Source: Phycisphaerales bacterium (GTDB lineage: Bacteria; Planctomycetota; Phycisphaerae; Phycisphaerales; UBA5793). Taken from it: DNA of 64,000 bases. Shown here piece after piece: positions 1,241 through 43,648 of this stretch (the stretch's first letter is position 1; each line of letters opens with the position of its first letter). Where the stretch lies: positions 186,155-250,154 of the forward strand of contig JADZAS010000016.1 in the NCBI GenBank assembly GCA_020852515.1, given 5' to 3'. A program made the position numbers and the translations under genes. The notes beneath the pieces were generated by a model. The model was not told where the DNA came from and did not search any database. It saw nothing but the letters and a program-made list of their open reading frames with translations.

Positions 1241-2887
1241 ATGGGCATGCTCACCACCATTGCCGCCGCCGCCTTGTTCACGCTCCAGCCCGTTCCCCCC
1301 GCCGACGTCGTCATCCAGAACGCGCGGATCTGGAGCGACGGCCTGCCCGGCTTCGCGGCTTTCGCCGCCGTGCGCGACGGCGAATTCGTCTACGTCGGCG
1401 ATGCGGCCCCCGAGTGGATCGGCCCGCAGACGGTGGTCCTCGACGCCCGGCAGCGCCTCGTGCTGCCCGGGCTCATCGACTCGCACGTACACATGCTCGG
1501 CGGCGGCACGGGCCTGGCCCAACTCCAACTGCGCGACGCGGCCGACAAGGACGAATTTATCGCACGCATCGCCCGGTGGTCGGACCAGTTGCGCCCCGGT
1601 AAGTGGATCCTTGGCGGCCGGTGGTCGGTGGAGAGCTGGACGAGCCCGGAAGCGCCGCGCAAGGAGTGGATCGACGAAGTCACCGCCGGACATCCCCTCT
1701 ACCTGCCGCGCATGGATGGTCACTCGGCGCTGGTCAACTCCGCCGCGCTGGAACTGGCCGGCATCACGCGCGACGGCCCCGACGACCCCGAAGGCGGCGT
1801 GATCGATCGCGACCCGCAGACGCGCGAGCCAACCGGCATCCTCCGCGAGTCGGCGATGCGCCTCGTGTCGCGCTTCATCCCCGAGCCGACCGTTGATGAC
1901 AAAGTCGATGCCCTCCGCGCCGCCATGCACCACGCCCTGGCGCACGGCATCACCAGCGTCTCAGACGTTGCCTCCATCGGCGACCTGCCCGCGTATGAAC
2001 TTCTGGCCGCGGATGAGAACCTGCCCATGCGGCTGTTCGTTTACGCGACCGCCGACGACTGGGCCGATGCCGCCGAGATCATCAAGTCTTTTCAGGGTCG
2101 CGAAGACTGGATCGAAGTCAATGGTCTCAAGACGTACCTCGACGGCAGCCTCGGCTCGCGCACGGCGATGATGCGCGATCCCTACCTGGGCAACCGGCCC
2201 GATCAGCCGCAGTGGCGCGGCCTGTTTCGCGAGGGCGTAGAGGACGGCCGCTTCGACGCCAACCTTGCCGCGGCGCAGCGCGCGGGCCTTCAGCCCATCG
2301 TGCACGCCATCGGCGACCAGGCGAATCGCTTCCTGCTCAGCACGTATGCGGCGCACTTCGACCATCTCCGCGCCGCCCGCTGCCGCAGCGAACACGCGCA
2401 GCACCTGCTGCCCGATGACATCCAGCGCTTCGGCGATCTCGGCGTGATCGCTTCAATGCAACCTTATCACAAGGCCGACGACGGCCGCTACGCCGAAGCC
2501 ATCATCGGCCCCTATCGCGCGCGATCCAGTTACGCCTACAAGTCGCTGCTCGACGCCGGCGCCGTGCTCGCGTTCGGCTCCGACTGGCCGGTGGTGTCGA
2601 TCAACCCGATGCTCGGCGTCGAAGCGGCGGTCACGGGCCGCACCCTGGCGGGCGAAATCTGGCAGCCGCAGGAGAATCTCACCGTGGGCGAAGCCCTGCG
2701 CTGCTACACGACGCGGGCCGCGTACGCCATGTTCGAAGACGACCGCCTCGGCCGCATCGCCCCCGGCTACCGCGCCGACTTTGTCATCCTGAGCGCCTCC
2801 CCCTTCGACGCCGAGCCGAAGTGGAGCGAGATTCATCCCGTCGCGGTGTATGTGGATGGGGTGATGAGGTATGAGGCGGGGGAATGA
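1241..2887 (+). CDS. metal-dependent amidohydrolase (amidohydrolase-3 family)
   Basis: 548 aa; N-terminal hydrophobic segment; DSHVHMLGGG metal-binding motif; later HAIGD and FGSDWPV motifs typical of the family. Confidence 0.8.
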   Translation: MGMLTTIAAAALFTLQPVPPADVVIQNARIWSDGLPGFAAFAAVRDGEFVYVGDAAPEWIGPQTVVLDARQRLVLPGLIDSHVHMLGGGTGLAQLQLRDAADKDEFIARIARWSDQLRPGKWILGGRWSVESWTSPEAPRKEWIDEVTAGHPLYLPRMDGHSALVNSAALELAGITRDGPDDPEGGVIDRDPQTREPTGILRESAMRLVSRFIPEPTVDDKVDALRAAMHHALAHGITSVSDVASIGDLPAYELLAADENLPMRLFVYATADDWADAAEIIKSFQGREDWIEVNGLKTYLDGSLGSRTAMMRDPYLGNRPDQPQWRGLFREGVEDGRFDANLAAAQRAGLQPIVHAIGDQANRFLLSTYAAHFDHLRAARCRSEHAQHLLPDDIQRFGDLGVIASMQPYHKADDGRYAEAIIGPYRARSSYAYKSLLDAGAVLAFGSDWPVVSINPMLGVEAAVTGRTLAGEIWQPQENLTVGEALRCYTTRAAYAMFEDDRLGRIAPGYRADFVILSASPFDAEPKWSEIHPVAVYVDGVMRYEAGE

Positions 2888-4800: not shown

Positions 4801-5196
4801 CGGACCCAGGGCGCCTCGCCAACGTCCGGGCCTCATCCAGTCGTGATCGGACGGCTCCGCGAGCCCACCACGAAATCACATACACCAGCCCCGATCGCGC
4901 CCACTGGTCGGCCCACTGACCCCTCACCCCGGGCCGGACCCGCCCACAAGCCACCTTGACCAAACAGGCTCCTGACAATAGACTGCGCCACGATGGCCAA
5001 ACGGAAAAGCGGCCCGAAATCGGCTTCGCGCGGCAAGGCGGCCGCTGAGGAGGCTGAGTCCTCCTGCTCAGCCGACGCCGACCGCGAAGCGACTGCGTTC
5101 CACAAACGAACGGGTAGAATCATCAAACTCCTCACTGTTCAAGAGATTCTCGATGAGGAGTGGGTGCAGAAGATGTGAGGCAAGTAAGGAATCGCG

Positions 5197-6078
5197 ATGA
5201 GCGTTACCGACTGGTTTCGATCTTTCAATAGTGAACTGCAAGTGACGCGAGCCGACACCATCTCGGATCGGTATAAGGCAATCACGCGACGCCTGAATAC
5301 GGATTATTGGGCGACGACCTCCGATACCTCGCACAGTTTGTATGTCGGCTCCTACGGCCGGAACACAGCCATTCGAGGCTTTAGCGACCTTGACATGCTC
5401 ATGCAGCTGCCTTATGCAGTATACGAGCAATATAATAATCATAGCGGCAACGGCCAGTCCGCCCTTCTGCAGGCGGTAAAGGCGTCGATCGAAAAGACCT
5501 ATTCGACGACCAGCATCAGGGCTGACGGGCAAGTCATCCTTGTACCGTTTACAGATGGAATCACGTTTGAAGTTGTGCCTGCGTTCGAGAACAAGAACAG
5601 CAGCTTCACCTACCCGAACGCGAACGGCGGCGGAAGTTGGGAGACCACAGATCCACGGCGGGAGATCGAGGCAATTCGACTGCGGAATGCTGCCTGTAAC
5701 TCTAATCTCGTACCTCTATGCAAGATGATGCGCGCATGGAAGGGCTGCTGGGGCGTTCCGATCGGTGGATTGCTGATCGATACGCTTGCATATCAGTTCA
5801 TTGAGAACTACGAGCACCGAGACAAGTCGTACCTGTACTATGACTTCATGTGCAGGGACTTCTTTCACTGGATGGCTAATCAAAGCGAGGCGCAAGAGTG
5901 GTGGCGAGCGCCGGGCAGCGGTGCGTATGTCTACGGGAAGGGGCTGTTTCAATACAAGGCCAAGCGTTGCTACAATATCGCGCTGGAAGCAATAGCGCAC
6001 GAGCAGGCCGATCCCAAACGGGAGTGGTCAGCGAAGCAGAAGTGGAGAGAAATCTTTGGATCATCCTTCCCCTCCTGA
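5197..6078 (+). CDS. SMODS-family nucleotidyltransferase (predicted second-messenger oligonucleotide/dinucleotide synthetase, CD-NTase-like)
   Basis: 293 aa. Motif YVGSYGRNTAIRGFSDLDMLM (G-S-x11-D-x-D) followed by ILVPFTDGITFEVVPAF (third acidic residue) is the pol-beta-like minimal nucleotidyltransferase core typical of SMODS/cGAS-DncV-like enzymes. AAGGAA RBS lies 8 nt upstream. Confidence 0.75.
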   Translation: MSVTDWFRSFNSELQVTRADTISDRYKAITRRLNTDYWATTSDTSHSLYVGSYGRNTAIRGFSDLDMLMQLPYAVYEQYNNHSGNGQSALLQAVKASIEKTYSTTSIRADGQVILVPFTDGITFEVVPAFENKNSSFTYPNANGGGSWETTDPRREIEAIRLRNAACNSNLVPLCKMMRAWKGCWGVPIGGLLIDTLAYQFIENYEHRDKSYLYYDFMCRDFFHWMANQSEAQEWWRAPGSGAYVYGKGLFQYKAKRCYNIALEAIAHEQADPKREWSAKQKWREIFGSSFPS

Positions 6079-6643
6079 GCCCATCGAGAGCGCCCGAGGC
6101 GCGCTTGAGGATCAGATTCGAGAGTGTTTCGGGCGAGTGGTTTACTCACATAAGACGCACGAGAAGTGTGCCGACATTCTGCTCGATCGGCTCGGTAAGA
6201 TCAAACTGGCGCAAATTGTACTCTCGGCGCTAGCTGCTGGAGGCTTCCTTGTTATTCTATTTGGGGAGGGGCGGCCAACCGCGATCATTGGTGCCATTAT
6301 CACCACGTCGCTGCTCGTCTTGAACGCGTATACCAAGGATTACGATCTAGGTGAGATAGCTCAAAGACATCGACAGGCAGCGGCTGATTTGTGGCTCGTT
6401 CGTGAAGGGTACTTGTCGCTGCTGACCGATATTCGTGGGCAGGCCGCGGGTCTCGATGTTTGTCGTACGCGACGCGATGATCTCCTGGCTCAATTGCACT
6501 CAGTGTATTCAGGCGCACCGAGCACGATGTGCAAGGCGTATAAAGCTGCGCAAACCGCGCTTCAAGAACTTGACGAACTCACGTTTGACGACGGCGAGAT
6601 CGATAAGTTTCTTCCTCAGTGCCTGAGAAAGGCCAAAGGCTAG
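6056..6643 (+). CDS. SLATT-domain two-transmembrane effector protein
   Basis: 195 aa. Overlaps the upstream gene by 23 nt, suggesting translational coupling. Two adjacent hydrophobic helices (LAQIVLSALAAGGFLVILFG; TAIIGAIITTSLLVLNAY) followed by a soluble helical C-terminal region, the SLATT architecture that partners with SMODS. Confidence 0.65.
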   Translation: MDHPSPPEPIESARGALEDQIRECFGRVVYSHKTHEKCADILLDRLGKIKLAQIVLSALAAGGFLVILFGEGRPTAIIGAIITTSLLVLNAYTKDYDLGEIAQRHRQAAADLWLVREGYLSLLTDIRGQAAGLDVCRTRRDDLLAQLHSVYSGAPSTMCKAYKAAQTALQELDELTFDDGEIDKFLPQCLRKAKG

Positions 6644-6659
6644 CAAACCGGCAGCAGTT

Positions 6660-6960
6660 GCTCGCGTCGGCATCGCGCGCGGCAGCAGCGCGCTGGTGCT
6701 CAGCCCGGGTGACTTCAGCGTGGTCGTGCGCGCCCTCGAGACGGTCAACGATGGCCGATCGCTCAATGTGCCGCGCGTGCTGGTGAACAACAACCAGCAG
6801 GCGTCGCTCAACTCCGTGCTCCAGCAGCCCTTTGTGAGCATCAACGCCTTTGACACGATTGCGACGACTTCGTTCGGCGGGAGGCTGGAAGCCTCGCTTG
6901 ACTACGGCACCCGCACCATCAAAGCACAGCTCGTTGGATTCCTTCGTGCGCGCTTCGTGT
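6660..6960 (+). pseudogene. secretin (GspD/PilQ-like) C-terminal domain fragment
   Basis: Frame reads ...GSSALVLSPGDFSVVVRALETVNDGRSLNVPRVLVNNNQQASLNSVLQQPFVSINAF...GGRLEASLDYGTRTIKAQL. This matches the conserved secretin-domain pattern (alvl-s-gdfsavlraLe...anvLssPrvltlNNqeAs...g...Pf). No N-terminal domains, no start codon; it degenerates after ~6960. Confidence 0.5.
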
Positions 6961-7019: not shown

Positions 7020-8054
7020 TCAGGCGGAGTGCGACACGTCGATGAGCGATTGCAGCGCGGCATTTGCCTTGCCGCTGGCGATCGAGTCGCGCGACATGGC
7101 AACGCCCACTGCAAACTCGGGCGCGAGGTCAGCCACGACCAGCGCCGCCGCTGCGTTGAGCACGGCCATTTCCGCGTGCGGCCCCGGCCGGCCTGAGAGA
7201 ACTTCTGTGATGATCCGGGCTGCGTCGGCCACGTCGGCGGCTGGGGGCGGAGCATCGCTGGGCGCCATGCCCAGCGACGCCGGGTCGCACCTGCCGGCGT
7301 GAACAGCGCCGGCCCGACAGTCGGCGAGTTGATTGGGGCCGGCGGTGGAGAGTTCGTCGAGCCCGCCGCAGCCGTGCACGATCATCGCGCGATGGGCGCC
7401 CAGCCGCGTGAGCGCCTGCGCGAGCAGATCGACAAACTGCGGCGCGTAGACGCCGATGACCTGACGCCGGGCGCCGGCTGGGTTGGTCAGCGGGCCGAGG
7501 AGATTGAAGATGGTGGGAAAGCCCAGCGAGCGGCGGGCGGGCATGGCGTGGCGCGTGGCGGGGTGGTGATGGATCGCAAACGAAAAGCTCAGCCCGGCCG
7601 TCTGCAGGCAGCGGGCCTGGACGTCGGGCGGAGCATTGACGTTGACGCCGAGATGCTCGAGGACTTCGGCCGAGCCGCGGCCGGTGCGCGAGCGGTTGCC
7701 GTGTTTGGCGACGACGGCGCCGGCGCCGGCGGCGACGACGGCCGCGGCGGTGGAGACGTTGAAAGTCTTGGGCGCGCCGCCGGTGCCGCAGGTGTCGATG
7801 AGCCGATCGCGGAGATCGTCGGGCACGGGCACGCGGGTCACGTGCTCGCGCATGACGCGTGCCGCGCCGACGAGTTCATCCACGCCCGGGCCGCGCTGCG
7901 CGAGCACGGTGAGGAGCTGGGCGATCCGCTCCGTCTGGGCCCGGCCGGTCATGATGAGCGAAAACGCCTGATGCGCCTCGTCTTCGCTCAGCGAAGGGCG
8001 GCTTTGCGCAAGGGCAATGAGCGGCTCAAGATCGGCGGCGGGTGCGGCGGACAT
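7020..8054 (-). CDS. trpD: anthranilate phosphoribosyltransferase
   Basis: 344 aa; GTGGAPKTFNVSTAAA, HGNRSRTGRGSAEVLE and other TrpD hallmark blocks. Confidence 0.9.
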   Translation of the reverse strand: MSAAPAADLEPLIALAQSRPSLSEDEAHQAFSLIMTGRAQTERIAQLLTVLAQRGPGVDELVGAARVMREHVTRVPVPDDLRDRLIDTCGTGGAPKTFNVSTAAAVVAAGAGAVVAKHGNRSRTGRGSAEVLEHLGVNVNAPPDVQARCLQTAGLSFSFAIHHHPATRHAMPARRSLGFPTIFNLLGPLTNPAGARRQVIGVYAPQFVDLLAQALTRLGAHRAMIVHGCGGLDELSTAGPNQLADCRAGAVHAGRCDPASLGMAPSDAPPPAADVADAARIITEVLSGRPGPHAEMAVLNAAAALVVADLAPEFAVGVAMSRDSIASGKANAALQSLIDVSHSA

Positions 8055-22685: not shown

Positions 22686-23106
22686 CGGTCGAACGCCGTA
22701 CCCGGCGGCTCCAGTTGCACGAACTTCACCTTGAGCCCTTTGCCCCGGCTCGCCTTCTTGCTCTCGAGGTAGCGGTCCGCTTCGATCTGCTCGGTGAGGC
22801 TGTGCTGCTCGACGCTGCCCGAGTCGCCGCTCGCCTTGGCGGGGCCTTGGGCGCTCTGTTTGATCGCCTGCTCGATGTCGGACTCAGCCATCCCTTGTCC
22901 TCGTACATTTCGATGAGAACTGCCATGCGCTTGCGCCACCGCCGCTGCCGCTGGGCGTAGGTATTGACCGCGGTGGAAACCGGCCGCCCCTCCAGGTGCG
23001 CCACCCACGCCTCCTGCACCGCGTCTTCACGATCCAGCGCAGGGACAAAGCGCAGCTCGATCACGAGTCGGCCAGGGTGATCCAGAGGTGGATGCACATG
23101 GTCCAT
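22682..23106 (-). pseudogene. hypothetical gene split across two frames (possible frameshift)
   Basis: Minus ORFs 22726..23106 and 22682..23008 overlap and join at ~22890 (...VLIEMYEDKG / MAESDIEQAIKQ...). Confidence 0.25.
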
Positions 23107-23363
23107 CCGTCAGGTACGGACGGATGAAAGGCTCAGGGATTGCGGATGGGGAGGGGTGACGGCGAAGTCGTTACACGGGTAGACGTTGACGAGGAGATCA
23201 GCGTAAAGCGAGGCAGGATTCCACGACGAGACCGGCCTAGCCGCGCAGCAACTGCCGCGAGCAATTGTCGCGGCGATTCGCCGTTAGGGGACATGAGATG
23301 AATGGCGCTGAGATATTGGCGTCGATCCAATCTGCTTAGTTTGACAATGCCCTGAAACAGTCG

Positions 23364-23603
23364 CTATTCCACTTTCTTTGGAAGTCCGGTCCACCCTTTC
23401 GGCAACTTTCCACCGCGGAAGATATCGGAGAGGATTTCAGCGTCGGACTTCCATTCAATCGAATCGCGGGTTTGGCGCTTGATCGTGATTGGATTAAACT
23501 CTCGTCTCAGTGCGCTGAGCGGAATTCCATGATCCAGAGGGATTGAACGAATTGACCGATCTTGGATGATTGAACGATCTGGAATTACCGAGTGATGTGC
23601 CAT
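23364..23603 (-). CDS. hypothetical small protein (low-GC patch)
   Basis: 79 aa, balanced composition, located in the low-GC block 23.34-24.6 kb. Confidence 0.3.
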   Translation of the reverse strand: MAHHSVIPDRSIIQDRSIRSIPLDHGIPLSALRREFNPITIKRQTRDSIEWKSDAEILSDIFRGGKLPKGWTGLPKKVE

Positions 23604-23736
23604 CTTGTGTCCCGTCCAGTTGAATGTAGCCGCAACTTGGAAAAAGTACCCCGTACGGCTTCGATCAGCGGATGGTAACGCCTTCGCGATCTGAAGGAAG
23701 CGCGCAGCCCGCCAATTGGGATGATAAACTTCACCG

Positions 23737-24150
23737 TCATCCGCCGGGCTTCCAATCCTTCGCGAGCGATACGAGCATCGTCGTCATGAACTGTTTCACA
23801 CGATCCACCATCGCCGGGTCATCTTGCCAGTCCTCGTACTGCTCGGTCCCTTTCGGCTTCAGCAGTTTGTGCATCTCTTCTTCGAACCACTTATCCACGT
23901 ATGCCTGTGCCTTGGATCGCTGGCTCGACTCGTCCATTGTGGCCAATTGCTTGATCCAAGCATCCGGGTCTCCGGCGTTGACGCCCGAATTCATAACTTC
24001 GTGTTGAGCGAGCAATGCAGCATGGGCCTTTGCGATCGCGTATGCCTTGTCGTCGTCAACGCGGGAATTCCCGCCCAGCCATGACCAGATTCCACAGCAC
24101 CCGGAGAGCAGGACAACTAGTACGACCCCACCGAGGATGTAGTCCTTCAT
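23737..24150 (-). CDS. hypothetical lipoprotein (low-GC patch)
   Basis: MKDYILGGVVLVVLLSGCCG: lipobox LLSGC. Acidic/Trp-rich soluble domain. The longer N-terminal extension to 24231/24330 is doubtful. Confidence 0.5.
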   Translation of the reverse strand: MKDYILGGVVLVVLLSGCCGIWSWLGGNSRVDDDKAYAIAKAHAALLAQHEVMNSGVNAGDPDAWIKQLATMDESSQRSKAQAYVDKWFEEEMHKLLKPKGTEQYEDWQDDPAMVDRVKQFMTTMLVSLAKDWKPGG

Positions 24151-24381
24151 TGTGACTGGCTTGGACGCCGGGGATTCAGAAGTTGTCGCGGTAGACTCGG
24201 GTTGCTGATCACTGCTGAACTCAGACATCATGGCGGTACCTCCGGGGAGAAAGGCAGGGAACGCTAGCCTGCCTAGAGGGCGGGCAATGACATGGCGTCT
24301 CACCCTGCGGGCCGGCATAGTGAGTCCCAAACTGAGTGAGTGTAACGGGCGTCTTGTGGGATTGCGAGCGGTCCGATCCCC

Positions 24382-24573
24382 CTACATCGCCATCCCGGCG
24401 ATCCGCTCCGTCGTCGTCACTCTTCGCCCGCAGTGCCGACACTCCCGCCTGCGGATCGCTCCAAGTGGAATCCGCCGGGTGTAGATGACCTCGAAGTGAG
24501 CGCACCCGCACTTCGGGCACAAAATCCCACGGGGTTCGGGGTCGCGCTTCGGCCTGGTCGCCATTTCCCTCAT
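24382..24573 (-). CDS. Ogr/Delta-like (treble-clef) zinc-finger small protein
   Basis: 63 aa; CPKCGCAHFEVIYTRR...RRRECRHCGRRVTTTERI matches the C-P-x-C-G-x-AH...R...C-x-x-CG pattern of P2 Ogr/Delta late activators (MqsA-type zinc ribbon is an alternative). Confidence 0.45.
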   Translation of the reverse strand: MREMATRPKRDPEPRGILCPKCGCAHFEVIYTRRIPLGAIRRRECRHCGRRVTTTERIAGMAM

Positions 24574-26597: not shown

Positions 26598-26671
26598 CGG
26601 GCGATTAGTTCAGTTGGCTAGAACGCACGGATCACACCCGTGAGGTCACTGGTTCGAGTCCAGTATCGCCC
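26598..26671 (+). tRNA. tRNA-Val (anticodon CAC)
   Basis: Hand-folded cloverleaf: acceptor GGGCGAT/ATCGCCC, D-arm GTTC-AGTTGGCTA-GAAC, anticodon stem CACGG/CCGTG with loop AT-CAC-AC, T-arm ACTGG-TTCGAGT-CCAGT. No encoded CCA. Confidence 0.85.
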
Positions 26672-26889
26672 ACTTTCGACAAGCTCAGCCGAGCAAAGAG
26701 GTTGCGGGTACCGCTTTGCCATCGCCATGCACGCATGGCGCGGCTCCAGTTTCAGTAGTCTACTGAGAGTTGGAGCTCGCGCCCGTGTCACCGAAAAAAA
26801 CGCAACGCCGATCGATCAATCGCGCAGCGCCGCGCGCACTCCTCACGCGCCTAGCGCGAGGCGCGGTTCCCTTCCTGCAGCCTCCACAA

Positions 26890-42600: not shown

Positions 42601-43648
42601 TGGCGCCGTTAATAAACGCGTCGTCGTTGTTCGGTCCACCCCAGTCCTGGAACGCATCGAACAGCAGCGTGTAGAGGTCAACGTCAGCAGGAGTGCGGCC
42701 GAGGCTCACGGCGTCGGTGAATTCGTCAGGGCTGCTGGCGCCCAGTTCAAAGTTGGCGTTGAGGTTGAGCATCGCCGAGGCGTCGACGATTCGGAACGCG
42801 CCGAAGATGCGCATTTCCTTGGGCAGGCCCCAGACGTCGGGCAGTTCGGTCCAGCGGGCGTCGATGCGGCCGTCGCCGTCGGTGTCGGCGCCGAGCATGC
42901 GGTCGGCCCAGGTGACGATGGAATCATCAGCCTCGCCAAGAAACTGCCGACCCATCTGCACGGAGTAATCGAACGGATCGGCGCGATTGGCATTGGTGTA
43001 GGTGTCGAGGCGGTAGGGATTCGCGTTGCTGCCGCCGATGTAAAGATCGGCGTAGAAGCCGCTGTTGTTCCCCAAGCCGCGCGCACCGCTGAAGAACCCC
43101 GCGAGCGACACGAAGCGACCCTGCGGATGCACGTTGGAAATGTGCCGCCAGATGTCCCAGATCCCATCGCCATCGGAATCGACAGGTTCAAGATCAGCCA
43201 GCCATGGGTCGGCGAGCACGTTGAACTGCGACGAATTGCCGGGCCGCGTGTAGGGATAGTCCCAGCGCTCGCCGAGATACAGCTTCTGGAAACCGAGGTT
43301 GTCCGTCAGATCTTCGAAGGGGAATCTCGCGCCGGGATCGCCACCGAATGGGTCGTACGCAATGATCTGGCCGACGTAATCGACGGCCTTGGCCGCCACC
43401 GCGTCGCGGTGGCTCTTCATTTCGCTGGCCGAGGCCGCGAGTCGCTCCTGCTGGCCGACGCCGACGTAGACCGCGGCCGAGATGGCCAGAAGGACCAGTA
43501 CGCCGACCACGAGGATGAGCACGCTGCCGCGCCGGCTCGAGGCCGGCCTGGCGCGATGCCTGCTGGTCTTGTTCTTTCGCCCGTGCATGGTCAATCTCCT
43601 GTGCTGCTCAGGTCCTGGCGCGTCACCGCGCGGTGTGCATCGCCTCAA
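39614..43648 (-). CDS. giant GspK-like minor pseudopilin-domain protein
   Basis: 1344 aa; N-terminus RRGSVLILVVGVLVLLAISAAVYV mirrors the GspK N-terminal helix. Start ATG overlaps the stop of the upstream pseudopilin gene (ATGA). Confidence 0.55.
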   Translation of the reverse strand: MRRCTPRGDAPGPEQHRRLTMHGRKNKTSRHRARPASSRRGSVLILVVGVLVLLAISAAVYVGVGQQERLAASASEMKSHRDAVAAKAVDYVGQIIAYDPFGGDPGARFPFEDLTDNLGFQKLYLGERWDYPYTRPGNSSQFNVLADPWLADLEPVDSDGDGIWDIWRHISNVHPQGRFVSLAGFFSGARGLGNNSGFYADLYIGGSNANPYRLDTYTNANRADPFDYSVQMGRQFLGEADDSIVTWADRMLGADTDGDGRIDARWTELPDVWGLPKEMRIFGAFRIVDASAMLNLNANFELGASSPDEFTDAVSLGRTPADVDLYTLLFDAFQDWGGPNNDDAFINGAMSGRPGFKKHLFDTGIQSGILGTQPYAPLKRSTREQREAFWTSYARNPYRPGGSFSPYGVADEMELRTFMFGINDRATSRLEQTFDGLNFDPADFRTWHSPLRNRFVSTERVDLYRGTPDLATLQDDARHLLTTYNGSRPVRPWNRGYAESDSPSSAINLNALLESNSVSTAQSLTGAFMWALAPYAVDVGMRDGSGNDSGYNLFNSPVVWTPTNPNEQLHYGDGDAGYAFYKSALLALNAIDSYDEDSAPTIRTLVMDRDYSIQGTDRQGKEIIGTFEHGKIPTTLPGPSGNQRGATITLMGLERQPFIREVSSVNVYGNIDDNEFWNYDPVEGDAGEWMVRILAIELGNPWPHPVKVSSGFKIKYGDDPLNSWTIPAGTPDIQPGEGVILYIAQDNPSGQANGVSDWVTAVSGRRGWTVQRIGDDSTHLEFSNGATDFDEVTLWRTASYGSPGTPVEVLIDRIRPATSNDDFPNIIPLSGELVSNPAHIPGESEFTVRVGSIRRYSDKGASGNSMPGYLFQSPVAIATSGRGSKDARQDDPFGGSNIPIGLIGAGLGSPGEFINDSSDSKGYAAAPIFAPFELIVGDLQGNTDETDENFRSSVDLLLLSSVGTIHCQQVPGIDPNFAEKHFYVTASELLGDESLRGRMVQELSNAGVANAAVLADIIRPATPTGGVVGYPADFRQHSNGAANRFVGRLDFTRFIPRSGNFAMPTCAVPLATRIIDAFDTVSVDSNVPLAQGRININTAPLRVLQALPFLHPRFAAGPIPDRTNNNLRIAESLRAYRDRGSFTMQSVDWSSAPRYEVSNLLVGGNNSGLRDDAASRGLAVNDRAPGFTSLGELLLATAWTPDSSGVSYQVDPGVQPGESAYWTGRDTGNLTYSPLNPNGLSVDATWEGSFDPSDDPTEHLALIRAIRNCVSTRSDVFIAYITLVGFTPGDIQRADAPGGSTVQKLTRLQASMEQRYVVVFDRSSVKSPSDRPRVLFAAQEVPSR

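What the first reader, a model, noticed from the sequence alone, without database searches (positions are those of the whole stretch)
5090..6650. Compact low-GC island encoding a SMODS nucleotidyltransferase plus SLATT two-transmembrane effector: candidate minimal CBASS-like abortive-infection system
A ~1.55-kb block at roughly 50% GC sits in a roughly 68% GC chromosome and contains exactly two genes that overlap by 23 nt, which implies translational coupling. Gene 1 carries the minimal pol-beta nucleotidyltransferase signature of SMODS/CD-NTase enzymes: G-S-x11-D-L-D and a downstream acidic residue in FTDGITFEVVPAF. Gene 2 is a ~195-aa protein with two adjacent transmembrane helices and a helical soluble tail, which is the SLATT architecture. 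SMODS-SLATT pairs were predicted computationally (Aravind-lab SMODS/SLATT nomenclature) to act as a sensor or second-messenger synthase plus a membrane-disrupting effector. To my knowledge this standalone pairing has little or no experimental characterisation. This is the best candidate in the window for a defence system of unknown mechanism. There is no cyclase-associated sensor domain, no cap (E1/E2/HORMA/TRIP13) gene and no nuclease. Any trigger sensing would therefore have to reside in the SMODS protein itself, whose C-terminal ~150 aa are unassigned.
Basis: partly seen in the sequence, partly recalled or inferred. Interest (0 to 1): 0.8.

Follow-up and report, generated by a model that had tools for sequence, protein, structure and literature searches.

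The report
Two-gene type I CBASS defence module
This is an intact two-gene type I CBASS anti-phage module, a signal-making enzyme plus a small membrane "suicide" protein, picked up by horizontal transfer; its kind is already catalogued and partly tested in other bacteria, so it is real but ordinary.

Summary
Window 5197..6078 (+) encodes a 293-aa SMODS/CD-NTase cyclase. Window 6056..6643 (+) encodes a 195-aa SLATT_4 two-transmembrane protein. The genes overlap by 23 nt in the lowest-GC block of the window (54.0% against 64.4%). Profile matches are end to end (Pfam E 4e-54 and 1.5e-65; PADLOC CBASS cyclase 1.5e-141 and 2TM effector 2.3e-76). The pair is adjacent in 78 of 89 related loci from more than 20 phyla, and no third gene recurs. 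That is the definition of a type I CBASS.

The kind is known. RefSeq annotates a copy with 72% cyclase identity in 47 complete E. coli genomes, inside a lambdoid prophage. Type I CBASS operons with SLATT effectors have been shown to block phages. The cyclase's "unassigned" C-terminal half is the normal CD-NTase helical lobe.

New details from this work:
- The 23-nt overlap, with an internal GGAG and mostly a TTG start, is conserved in 65 of 77 loci.
- The nearest solved structures are all clade D cyclases, but the Lid-2 residue is an invariant Glu, so the product cannot be predicted.
- In at least 16 relatives the pair is an integron gene cassette. The window copy has no attC site.

How SLATT senses the signal remains unknown.

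The parts
5100..5185 (+). Leader of about 84 nt just upstream of the cyclase ATG. It marks the left edge of the transferred block. Its function is unknown, and it overlaps the 3' end of a non-conserved 61-aa ORF (4993..5178).
   Evidence: DNA homology with the nearest relative (L101-L103) starts at window 5103-5116. The element occurs twice in L101, each time directly before an ATG. It occurs once in the window. Its hairpin is no better than shuffled sequence (z +0.39), and it has no Rfam match. GC drops from 0.68 to 0.48 between 5000 and 5100.
5197..6078 (+). CD-NTase (SMODS) oligonucleotide cyclase gene, 293 aa. Catalytic residues are G51-S52, D64, D66 and E125. Lid 1 is T151 and Lid 2 is E156.
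   Evidence: Pfam SMODS PF18144 E 3.8e-54, profile 1-164/164. PADLOC Cyclase PDLC00786 E 1.5e-141, 1-293/293. NCBIfam CBASS_cyclase_b E 1.5e-34, below its cut-off. Family profile against the PDB: PaCdnD 6p8u E 3.6e-20 over the full length, and BcCdnD 9sa5 E 5e-8.
6044..6049 (+). Shine-Dalgarno-like GGAGAG inside the cyclase codons W283-R284-E285, 8 nt upstream of the SLATT start codon.
   Evidence: Read directly from the sequence. The equivalent TGGAG(A/G)GA is present before the SLATT start in most of the 65 loci that keep the 23-nt overlap; a minority, including the E. coli prophage copies, have TGGCG instead.
6056..6078 (+). 23-nt dual-coding overlap: the cyclase C-terminus (…IFGSSFPS*) and the SLATT N-terminus (TTG-start MDHPSPP…).
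   Evidence: The overlap is exactly 23 nt in 65 of 77 related loci from many phyla, with a TTG (most loci) or ATG start. PGAP annotates the same overlap in E. coli. The homologues' N-termini (M/L-E-x-H-S-Q) align with the window's MDHPS.
6056..6643 (+). SLATT_4 two-transmembrane effector gene, 195 aa. Parts: cytosolic N-helix 17-48 (the most conserved region), TM1 about 49-69, loop GEGRPT, TM2 about 76-93, cytosolic helices 94-172.
   Evidence: Pfam SLATT_4 PF18186 E 1.5e-65, 1-165/165. PADLOC Effector 2TM PDLC00696 E 2.3e-76. NCBIfam SLATT_4 E 4.2e-37, above its cut-off. AlphaFold2 model with pLDDT 76, all helical. Hydropathy. Conservation by region.
6645..6900 (+). Right flank, not part of the system: a truncated secretin gene fragment that abuts the SLATT stop. 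It marks the right edge of the transferred block.
   Evidence: Translation. Pfam Secretin E 0.0075, profile positions 1-38 only. Homology with the nearest relative ends at 6631. Metagenome contigs break at 6743 and at 6830.

Best explanation
The block is a horizontally acquired, intact type I CBASS: a cyclase-effector operon with no ancillary genes.

**Shown here**
- Gene 1 is a CD-NTase of the SMODS type with a complete catalytic set (G51-S52, D64, D66, E125). It is most similar to clade D enzymes.
- Gene 2 is a SLATT_4 inner-membrane protein with two TM helices and cytosolic helical N- and C-terminal parts.
- The two genes form one unit. They share a conserved 23-nt overlap with an internal ribosome-binding site and a weak TTG start. 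This fits coupled, low-level translation of a toxic effector.

**Inferred from studied CBASS systems**
1. In uninfected cells the cyclase is held inactive.
2. A cue from phage infection switches it on. Other type I systems respond to a structured phage RNA or to virion-assembly proteins.
3. The cyclase makes a cyclic oligonucleotide from NTPs. A cyclic trinucleotide is the best guess from clade D relatives and the VGSY acceptor motif. The invariant Glu at Lid 2 leaves the product open.
4. The signal binds the conserved cytosolic helices of SLATT_4.
5. SLATT_4 then oligomerises or opens. This collapses the inner-membrane barrier or ion gradients.
6. The infected cell dies or stops growing before phage progeny are released.

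The module reached this Phycisphaerales genome by horizontal transfer. In other lineages the same module travels as an integron gene cassette, in prophages and on plasmids.
For: **Identity.** Pfam SMODS E 3.8e-54 and SLATT_4 E 1.5e-65, both full length. PADLOC CBASS cyclase E 1.5e-141 and 2TM effector E 2.3e-76, end to end. NCBIfam SLATT_4 above its cut-off.

**Catalytic residues.** The family profile aligns D64/D66 with PaCdnD D62/D64. The mutant chain 6p8j reads N-I-N at that position. E125 aligns with the Asp of the D-x-V-P strand (VDAVP in PaCdnD, MDVVP in BcCdnD). All are invariant or nearly invariant in the family.

**Operon unit.** SLATT_4 lies directly downstream in 78 of 89 loci. The overlap is 23 nt in 65 of 77 loci. 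No other gene recurs in the flanks. Window neighbours are an amidohydrolase, TrpD and ORFs with no Pfam match, with no Cap2/Cap3, HORMA/TRIP13 or nuclease.

**Effector swap.** In five loci cyclases of the same family (39-76% identical to the window's) pair instead with SLATT_6. This is typical CBASS modularity.

**Horizontal transfer.** GC is 54.0% against 64.4%, the lowest block in the window. Homology to the nearest relative, which sits in another genomic context, is limited to 5116-6631. Cyclases that are 65-77% identical occur in more than 20 phyla. Relatives carry attC sites at the module borders, sit in an E. coli lambdoid prophage, and occur in 936 plasmid records.

**Function of the kind.** Type I CBASS operons with SLATT6 gave at least 10,000-fold phage restriction (10.1101/2023.05.21.541620). 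A type I CBASS with a SLATT PF18186 effector was confirmed as anti-phage in Lactococcus with an Abi-like phenotype (PMC11381338). Membrane proteins including SLATT4 are listed as the most abundant CBASS effector class (PMC12480259).

**Intactness.** No frameshift or internal stop. The identical cyclase is found on 8 contigs from several samples.
Against: - Nothing has been tested in this organism or for this exact subfamily. Product, trigger and killing are inferred by homology.
- NCBIfam CBASS_cyclase_b scores 119.9, below its 200-bit equivalog cut-off.
- The third catalytic acid is Glu rather than the clade D 'LDL' Asp. Lid 2 is Glu rather than His or Gln (PMC13424991). Chemistry and product may therefore differ.
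- SLATT_4 has no recognisable nucleotide-binding domain, no sequence match in the PDB, and only generic helical-bundle fold matches. Direct ligand binding is therefore an assumption.
- The cyclase structure model was too poor to check the active-site geometry (pLDDT 50).
- No promoter stands out (1 site found against 0.8 expected).
Confidence: 0.85

Rival explanations
1. Same parts, different effector action. SLATT_4 is a nucleotide-gated, ion-selective channel that causes growth arrest or depolarisation. It would not be a non-specific pore or membrane disruptor that lyses the cell.
For: The 2TM-SAVED effector Cap14 of a type I CBASS was shown to be a 2',3'-cGAMP-gated chloride channel. Its authors propose that TM effectors of unknown function may broadly be nucleotide-gated channels (PMC10402079). 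SLATT_4 is small and all helical. It keeps invariant polar or small residues in and next to the TM helices (G63, G79, N90, Y92, K94).
Against: SLATT_4 has no SAVED domain and no homology to Cap14. No fold match to any channel was found. Nothing here tells a channel from a pore.
Confidence: 0.3
2. The module is a stranded passenger that no longer works in this genome. It would be a former integron cassette or mobile-element cargo left without a promoter or trigger, kept only by chance.
For: No attC site, integrase or other mobility gene is adjacent. The attC model finds nothing in the 64 kb. The module sits next to a broken secretin gene and a stretch of ORFs with no family match. No convincing promoter was found.
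Against: Both ORFs are intact, and every family-invariant residue is kept. The ribosome-binding site and the overlap are intact. The identical protein occurs in contigs from several independent samples. The nearest relative (85% and 76% aa identity against only 75% DNA identity) shows changes concentrated at silent sites, which indicates purifying selection.
Confidence: 0.08
3. The pair mainly serves mobile elements. It would act as an addiction or competition module that stabilises a cassette, prophage or plasmid or excludes rival elements, not as a host anti-phage system.
For: Relatives are carried in integron cassettes, a lambdoid prophage and many conjugative plasmids. The module combines a potentially lethal membrane protein with an enzyme that controls it.
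Against: Nothing like an antitoxin or an unstable partner is present. Tested type I CBASS operons protect against phages when expressed alone. In the window the module is chromosomal and has no element around it.
Confidence: 0.05
4. The nucleotidyltransferase is not a signal synthase. It would modify a macromolecule, for example by nucleotidylating a protein or RNA as MenT-like toxins do, and SLATT would have an unrelated membrane role.
For: NCBIfam equivalog cut-offs for CBASS cyclases are not reached. E125 and E156 depart from the motifs of characterised clade D enzymes.
Against: The full-length alignment to PaCdnD includes the C-terminal lobe and the W-R-x-I/L-F-G-x-x-F-P end motif, which is shared with PaCdnD and BcCdnD. 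The best PADLOC hits are all CBASS cyclase models. The obligate pairing with SLATT effectors, and the swap between SLATT_4 and SLATT_6, is the CBASS pattern.
Confidence: 0.03

Closest known systems
Type I CBASS operons with SLATT effectors that have been tested: EcCdnF04-SLATT6 and EcCdnF05-SLATT6 from E. coli, and the lactococcal plasmid operon pUCCL631_167/168 (SLATT PF18186 plus CD-NTase/AGS-C)
   Same: Two-gene architecture with a CD-NTase plus a roughly 190-aa SLATT 2TM effector and no ancillary genes. The lactococcal effector belongs to the same Pfam family (SLATT_4, PF18186). All were shown to restrict phages.
   Different: Those cyclases are clade F or carry a C-terminal AGS-C Ig-like domain (408 aa in the lactococcal operon). 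The window's cyclase is a bare 293-aa enzyme nearest to clade D. Gene order differs in the lactococcal operon. This exact subfamily has not, as far as I found, been tested.
The homologous pair annotated in RefSeq E. coli genomes (WP_000521772.1 SMODS domain-containing nucleotidyltransferase and WP_000371964.1 SLATT domain-containing protein)
   Same: Same subfamily: the cyclase is 72% and SLATT about 56% identical to the window's. Lengths are close (293 aa, and 193 aa against 195), the overlap is the same 23 nt and the order is the same.
   Different: It lies between the replication and nin regions of a lambdoid prophage in 47 of 5426 genomes. Its start codon is ATG instead of TTG. The window copy is chromosomal and has no element around it.
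PaCdnD (PDB 6P82/6P8J/6P8U) and BcCdnD (PDB 9SA5), clade D CD-NTases that make 3',3',3'-cAAA
   Same: They are the best solved-structure matches of the family profile (E 3.6e-20 over the full length, and 5e-8). Shared features are the G-S-Y acceptor motif, the D-x-D pair, Lid 1 Thr and the C-terminal W-R-x-I/L-F-G-x-x-F-P motif (PMC8096243; PMC13424991).
   Different: Those enzymes belong to type III (HORMA/TRIP13) and type II (Cap2/Cap3) systems with nuclease effectors. The third acid is Asp in both, against Glu here. Lid 2 is His in both, against an invariant Glu here. The first residue of XGSX is Thr or Ser, against Val here.
Cap14 (Saf-2TM plus SAVED) and Cap15 (2TM plus beta-barrel), characterised membrane effectors of type I CBASS
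   Same: Small inner-membrane effectors encoded next to a CD-NTase. They kill or arrest the cell by acting on the membrane (PMC10402079).
   Different: Both have a recognisable soluble ligand-binding domain (SAVED or beta-barrel). SLATT_4 has only helices and no known sensor fold.
SLATT_5 effectors of DRT10 (UG17) reverse-transcriptase defence systems
   Same: Same superfamily of 2TM effectors, also tightly coupled to the upstream or downstream enzyme gene by overlapping stop and start codons. How SLATT is activated is stated to be an open question (10.64898/2026.04.29.721553).
   Different: The partner there is a reverse transcriptase plus a ncRNA, and the proposed activator is cDNA, not a cyclic oligonucleotide. 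The SLATT family is also different.

Membership tests
Type I CBASS | A CD-NTase (cGAS/DncV-like, SMODS) cyclase gene | tested here: met
   Pfam SMODS E 3.8e-54 over the full profile. PADLOC Cyclase PDLC00786 E 1.5e-141 over 1-293/293.
Type I CBASS | Intact pol-beta catalytic set: G-S, [DE]-x-[DE] and a third acidic residue | tested here: met
   G51-S52, D64-L-D66 and E125 are present. They align with PaCdnD D62/D64 and with the Asp of the D-x-V-P strand (VDAVP in PaCdnD, MDVVP in BcCdnD). All are invariant or nearly invariant in the family. Geometry could not be checked because the model had pLDDT 50.
Type I CBASS | An adjacent effector (Cap) gene in the same operon | tested here: met
   SLATT_4 overlaps the cyclase gene by 23 nt. 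It is adjacent in 78 of 89 related loci. PADLOC Effector 2TM E 2.3e-76.
Type I CBASS | No ancillary genes: Cap2/Cap3 E1-E2/JAB (type II), HORMA/TRIP13 (type III), QueC/TGT/OGG-like Cap9/Cap10 (type IV) | tested here: met
   Flanking ORFs are an amidohydrolase, TrpD and ORFs with no Pfam match. No neighbour recurs across 89 loci.
Type I CBASS | Synthesis of a cyclic oligonucleotide that activates the effector | not testable with these tools
   Needs enzyme assays. Only motif-based hints are available: VGSY, T151 and E156 against the rules quoted in PMC13424991.
Type I CBASS | Protection against phage, with an abortive-infection phenotype | not testable with these tools
   Shown only for other type I operons with SLATT effectors.
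CD-NTase clade D | Groups with reference clade D enzymes | tested here: inconclusive
   The ten PDB matches whose clade I could establish are clade D: PaCdnD (three chains), BcCdnD (two chains), CdnD 9ntn, SeCdnD 7ljm, and cAAG-synthase chains 7d48, 7d4u and 7ljl, which share sequence numbering with the EcCdnD entry 7D4U. The eleventh match, cAAG synthase 7to3, was not identified. No match at E < 0.01 could be assigned to another clade. No tree with the reference set was built, and clade F has no structure to compare with.
CD-NTase clade D | Active-site motifs 'PDVDI' and 'LDL', with Lid 2 His (cAAA) or Gln (cAAG) | tested here: not met
   The window has S-D-L-D-M, F-E-V and Lid 2 = E156 (invariant). 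Lid 1 Thr and G-S-Y are kept (motif rules from PMC13424991).
SLATT_4 (PF18186) | Full-length profile match above the curated cut-off | tested here: met
   220.4 bits against a cut-off of 27, residues 17-181 = profile 1-165/165. NCBIfam SLATT_4 127.4 bits against 55.
SLATT_4 (PF18186) | Two adjacent transmembrane helices | tested here: met
   Hydropathy peaks at 49-72 (19-residue window) and about 76-92 (hand count of the shorter segment), joined by the loop GEGRPT. AlphaFold2 helices 10-69 and 73-96. Membrane insertion itself was not tested.
Integron gene cassette | An attC recombination site (R''…R' boxes with an imperfect hairpin) at the 3' end of the cassette | tested here: not met
   In the window, the attC covariance model R1 gives no hit at E <= 1 in 64 kb. 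Region 6638-6728 folds no better than shuffles (z +0.89). Only GGCTAGCAAAC recalls the R'' box GGCTAAC. In at least 16 relatives sites are present at the module border (E 1e-12 to 0.1), on both sides in 9 loci.

The most novel reading that the evidence does not exclude
The most novel reading not excluded has two parts.

1. This bare clade-D-like cyclase subfamily may make a signal not yet described for clade D. Its Lid 2 is an invariant Glu, its third catalytic residue is Glu, and its acceptor motif is VGSY.
2. SLATT_4 may sense that signal directly through its invariant cytosolic N-helix (L-E-x-Q-x-R-E-C-x-G-R-V-V-Y-S-H-K-T-H-E-K-C-A-D) packed against the C-terminal helices. That would be a new, minimal all-helical nucleotide receptor that gates a two-TM pore.

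The window would be one intact example of a module streamlined for life as an integron cassette.
Probability: 0.25. Interest if true: 0.55.

Novelty: new member of a known kind. Interest (0 to 1): 0.25.

Why it matters
For the window itself it matters little. It adds one more type I CBASS, in a Phycisphaerales (Planctomycetota) MAG, to a family with thousands of members.

The family is more useful than the single locus.
- It is one of the smallest complete CBASS systems, about 1.45 kb.
- It is unusually well conserved. Cyclases that are 65-77% identical, nearly all 293 aa long, occur in more than 20 phyla.
- It is present in E. coli, so it is easy to work with.
- Its effector has no recognisable ligand-binding domain. 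The family is therefore a clean model for an open question: how SLATT-type two-TM effectors, the commonest class of CBASS effector, read a nucleotide signal and kill the cell.

The conserved 23-nt overlap with a weak start codon, and the stop codon built into the attC R'' box of cassette-borne copies, show how a toxic two-gene system can be packed into an integron cassette.

Tried and rejected
1. **Cyclase structure.** AlphaFold2 on 40 homologues (75-85% identical) gave pLDDT 50. The alignment was too shallow, the model was not used, and no active-site overlay was possible. Both prediction jobs were then spent.

3. **A third gene.** The 61-aa ORF 4993..5178 is not conserved as an ORF outside the same organism. 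Only its last 80 nt or so are conserved, as DNA. It was rejected as part of the system.

4. **Flanking repeats or target-site duplication.** None was found. No tRNA is nearby.

5. **A relic attC after the SLATT stop.** MAFFT aligned 6638-6725 with real attC sites at both ends. However, the fold is no better than shuffles, and the covariance model gives no hit. The stretch also reads as part of the secretin fragment. It was rejected as a functional site, and a decayed remnant cannot be shown.

6. **Home-made attC scanners.** Two scanners using AAC…GTT boxes plus arm folding were no more specific than shuffled DNA genome-wide. Only the positional clustering at the gene borders was used, and it was then confirmed with the covariance model.

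7. **The 84-nt leader as an attC or a structured RNA.** The hairpin is not significant and there is no Rfam hit.

8. **Locating the intact secretin gene.** No other copy lies in the window, and no useful hit was found in plasmids.

9. **Literature look-ups.** Millman 2020 and the published Richmond-Buccola 2024 paper were not held. The E. coli accession was not found in any paper.

10. **Pycsar.** It was considered and rejected, because the enzyme is a SMODS pol-beta nucleotidyltransferase and not a PycC-type cyclase.
Full report
**1. What is in the sequence**

They share 23 nt (sequence). The block is the most AT-rich stretch of the 64 kb. Its GC is 54.0% over 5197-6643, against 64.4% for the window. 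The mean of all 1447-nt windows is 64.4% with sd 2.5%, and this block is the minimum. GC3 is 0.66 and 0.56, against 0.84-0.86 in the flanking trpD and amidohydrolase genes.

**2. Identity of the two proteins**

Protein 1:
- It matches Pfam SMODS (PF18144) over the whole profile (E 3.8e-54).
- It matches a PADLOC CBASS cyclase model end to end (PDLC00786, 1-293/293, E 1.5e-141).
- NCBIfam's CBASS_cyclase_b is the best NCBIfam hit but stays below its equivalog cut-off (119.9 against 200 bits).

Protein 2:
- It matches Pfam SLATT_4 (PF18186, E 1.5e-65, 1-165/165).
- It matches the PADLOC "2TM" CBASS effector PDLC00696 (E 2.3e-76).
- It matches NCBIfam SLATT_4 above its cut-off.
- Hydropathy shows two hydrophobic helices, about 49-69 and 76-93, joined by the six-residue loop GEGRPT.
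- An AlphaFold2 model (pLDDT 76) is all helical. One long helix, 10-69, runs from the cytosolic N-terminal part into TM1. TM2 is 73-96, and further helices follow at 98-128, 133-153 and 160-172.

The PADLOC model and the solved enzyme PaCdnD align over the whole length (2-292 against 3-298). This includes a C-terminal W-R-x-I/L-F-G-x-x-F-P motif shared with PaCdnD and BcCdnD.

**3. Surroundings**

Upstream lie an amidohydrolase gene (1241..2887) and about 2 kb of ORFs with no Pfam match. Downstream lies trpD on the other strand (7020..8054). There is no Cap2/Cap3, HORMA/TRIP13, nuclease, integrase or transposase next to the pair. There is also no nearby tRNA and no flanking repeat.

Directly after the SLATT stop the + strand reads as a short fragment of a secretin gene that lacks both ends.

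The source is a Phycisphaerales MAG, and the identical cyclase occurs on 8 contigs from several samples.

**4. Related loci**

The cyclase family is very large: 6310 proteins at E <= 1e-10. The top hits are 75-85% identical, nearly all of them exactly 293 aa long, and come from many phyla.

I fetched 80 loci from one-genome-per-species contigs and 9 from viral contigs.
- A SLATT_4 gene lies directly downstream of the cyclase in 78 of these 89 loci.
- The cyclase is better conserved (49-77% identity in the loci that also carry SLATT_4) than SLATT (42-63% over full-length matches).
- Clustering all flanking ORFs shows no third gene that recurs across lineages.
- Five loci that lack SLATT_4 carry a SLATT_6 gene (PF18169, E 2e-52) just upstream of the cyclase, which is 39-76% identical to the window's. 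This is the effector swapping typical of CBASS.

**5. The overlap is a conserved design feature**

In 65 of 77 loci the overlap is exactly 23 nt. The SLATT start is TTG in most and ATG in the rest. In most of them it is preceded by TGGAG(A/G)GA, which lies inside the cyclase codons K-W-R-E-I-F-G; a minority, including the E. coli prophage copies, read TGGCG there. In the window GGAGAG is at 6044-6049, 8 nt before the TTG at 6056. Homologues' N-termini (M/L-E-x-H-S-Q…) align with the window's MDHPS…, which confirms the start. PGAP annotates the same overlap in E. coli.

I infer that the effector is translated by coupling to the cyclase, and that a weak start codon keeps a toxic membrane protein scarce.

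**6. Which cyclase**

A profile of 30 diverse family members finds the following in the PDB:
- PaCdnD (6P8U/6P82/6P8J), E 3.6e-20, full length
- BcCdnD (9SA5), E 5e-8
- a CdnD from a type IV CBASS study (9NTN), E 3e-7
- cyclic AMP-AMP-GMP synthase chains (7LJL, 7D48, 7D4U, 7TO3) and 7LJM, E about 5e-4 to 1.5e-3

The papers confirm that these are clade D and that PaCdnD and BcCdnD make cAAA (PMC8096243; PMC13424991).

From the alignments:
- D64/D66 correspond to PaCdnD D62/D64.
- E125 corresponds to the catalytic Asp of the D-x-V-P strand (VDAVP in PaCdnD, MDVVP in BcCdnD).
- T151 corresponds to Lid 1 Thr.
- E156 corresponds to Lid 2.

By the rules quoted in PMC13424991, the XGSX motif here (VGSY) resembles cAAA makers (TGSY, SGSY). 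Lid 2, however, is an invariant Glu rather than His (cAAA) or Gln (cAAG). The enzyme is therefore "nearest to clade D", and a cyclic trinucleotide is the best guess, but the product cannot be predicted. My own structure model of the cyclase failed (pLDDT 50), so geometry was not checked.

**7. The effector**

SLATT_4 has no sequence relative in the PDB and no meaningful fold match. Its most conserved part is not the membrane helices. It is the cytosolic N-helix 17-48, with 18 of 32 positions invariant: L-E-x-Q-x-R-E-C-x-G-R-V-V-Y-S-H-K-T-H-E-K-C-A-D. Next come helices 94-128 and 140-172. These are the obvious candidates for signal binding or oligomerisation, but that is inference.

A 2026 preprint on DRT10 states that how SLATT detects its signal is a central open question.

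**8. How the module moves**

Homology between the window and its nearest relative (85% and 76% aa identity; loci L101-L103) covers only 5116-6631, plus a leader of about 80 nt. That relative sits in another high-GC host with different neighbours. This sets the borders of the transferred block and agrees with the GC step.

**Integron cassettes.** In many other relatives the SLATT stop codon is embedded in a box GGCTAAC. This box opens an imperfect hairpin that ends in GTTAGCC or a similar sequence, and a similar site ends 14-27 nt before the cyclase ATG. These are integron attC sites.
- Three of them fold far better than shuffles (z -3.8, -5.1 and -2.0).
- A covariance model built from 12 sites finds 35 hits at E <= 1 in 86 sources.
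- 34 of the 35 hits are on the strand of the CBASS genes.
- The hits form arrays in L006, L021, L022, L033, L063 and L064.
- Sites lie on both sides of the module in nine loci.

**Prophage.** In E. coli a copy with 72% cyclase identity sits between the replication and nin regions of a lambdoid prophage in 47 of 5426 complete genomes. It is annotated [quoted passage not shown].

**Plasmids.** More distant relatives occur in 936 plasmid records.

That integron cassettes carry streamlined defence systems is already reported (10.1101/2024.07.02.601686).

**The window copy.** It has no attC site. The model gives no hit in 64 kb, and the region after the stop folds no better than shuffles. How it arrived is therefore unknown.

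**9. Comparison with what is known**

A two-gene operon of a CD-NTase plus an effector, without ancillary genes, is the definition of type I CBASS (PMC10419184; PMC10402079).
- Type I operons mostly use clade D, E and F cyclases with 2- or 4-TM effectors. Clade D type I enzymes lack AGS-C domains (10.1101/2023.05.21.541620).
- Operons with SLATT6 effectors gave at least 10,000-fold restriction.
- A lactococcal operon with a SLATT PF18186 effector was confirmed as anti-phage.
- SLATT4 is counted among the membrane effector classes that together are the most abundant in CBASS.

The finding is therefore a new member of a known kind. It remains fair at the level of mechanism.

**10. Mechanism, shown and inferred**

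Shown here:
- The two families and their full-length matches
- The intact catalytic residues
- The two TM helices
- The conserved operon unit and overlap
- The absence of ancillary genes
- The foreign composition

Inferred from characterised CBASS systems:
1. A cue from phage infection activates the cyclase. Other type I systems respond to a structured phage RNA (PMC10686824) or show escape mutations in virion-assembly proteins.
2. The cyclase makes a cyclic oligonucleotide.
3. The signal acts on SLATT_4.
4. SLATT_4 breaches the inner membrane or lets ions through.
5. The infected cell dies or arrests before progeny are released.

Rivals:
- A gated ion channel rather than a pore, as found for Cap14
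- A stranded, silent passenger
- A role in the maintenance of a mobile element
- A non-signalling nucleotidyltransferase

The report's own fields weigh each of these.

**11. Verdict**

The system is real, intact and foreign to its host, but it belongs to a catalogued and partly tested class. Its interest is low for the window and moderate for the family as a model for SLATT activation.

Noticed in passing
window 6645-6900 (+): A secretin gene fragment that lacks both ends starts right after the SLATT stop (Pfam Secretin E 0.0075, profile positions 1-38 only). Metagenome contigs from five samples all end at 6743, and others all start at 6830. The piece of about 6714-6859 therefore behaves as a separate assembly unit, either repeated elsewhere or a polymorphic junction.
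   Followed up: partly
window 5100-5185 (+); L101 4979-5062 and 5306-5389: An element of about 84 nt just before the cyclase ATG is shared (80-87% identity) with the nearest relative. There it occurs twice, each time directly before an ATG: once before a 77-aa ORF and once before the cyclase. It contains the inverted repeat ACTCCTCA…TGAGGAGT, but the fold is no better than shuffles and it has no Rfam match. Its function is unknown.
   Followed up: partly
L006, L007, L014, L017-L019, L021-L023, L027, L031, L033, L061, L063, L064, L068: In these relatives the SMODS-SLATT pair is bounded by integron attC sites. The SLATT stop codon lies inside the R'' box GGCTAAC. Same-strand arrays of sites flank neighbouring cassettes. 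34 of the 35 covariance-model hits are on the gene strand.
   Followed up: yes
L009, L015, L060, L067, L084: Cyclases of the same family (39-76% identical to the window's) are paired with a SLATT_6 protein encoded just upstream instead of SLATT_4 downstream. Two SLATT families are apparently interchangeable behind closely related cyclases.
   Followed up: partly
L100 (E. coli NZ_CP027355.1, 1253063-1254503) and L086-L094: A copy of the pair with 72% cyclase identity sits in a lambdoid prophage between the replication genes and the nin region (DUF968, RusA, antiterminator). It is present in 47 of 5426 complete E. coli genomes.
   Followed up: yes
window about 23050-24500: This is the second-lowest GC block of the window (56.8%). 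Its ORFs of at least 110 aa have no Pfam match.
   Followed up: partly
window 42677-42764 (+): ARAGORN calls an 88-nt tRNA-Val(cac) here, but Rfam's tRNA model does not confirm it at gathering score. Only the tRNA at 26599-26672 is confirmed.
   Followed up: partly
L072 6001-7467: In this Chloroflexota locus the cyclase reading frame shows no stop before the end of the SLATT region. This may be a frameshift, a fusion or an assembly error.
   Followed up: no
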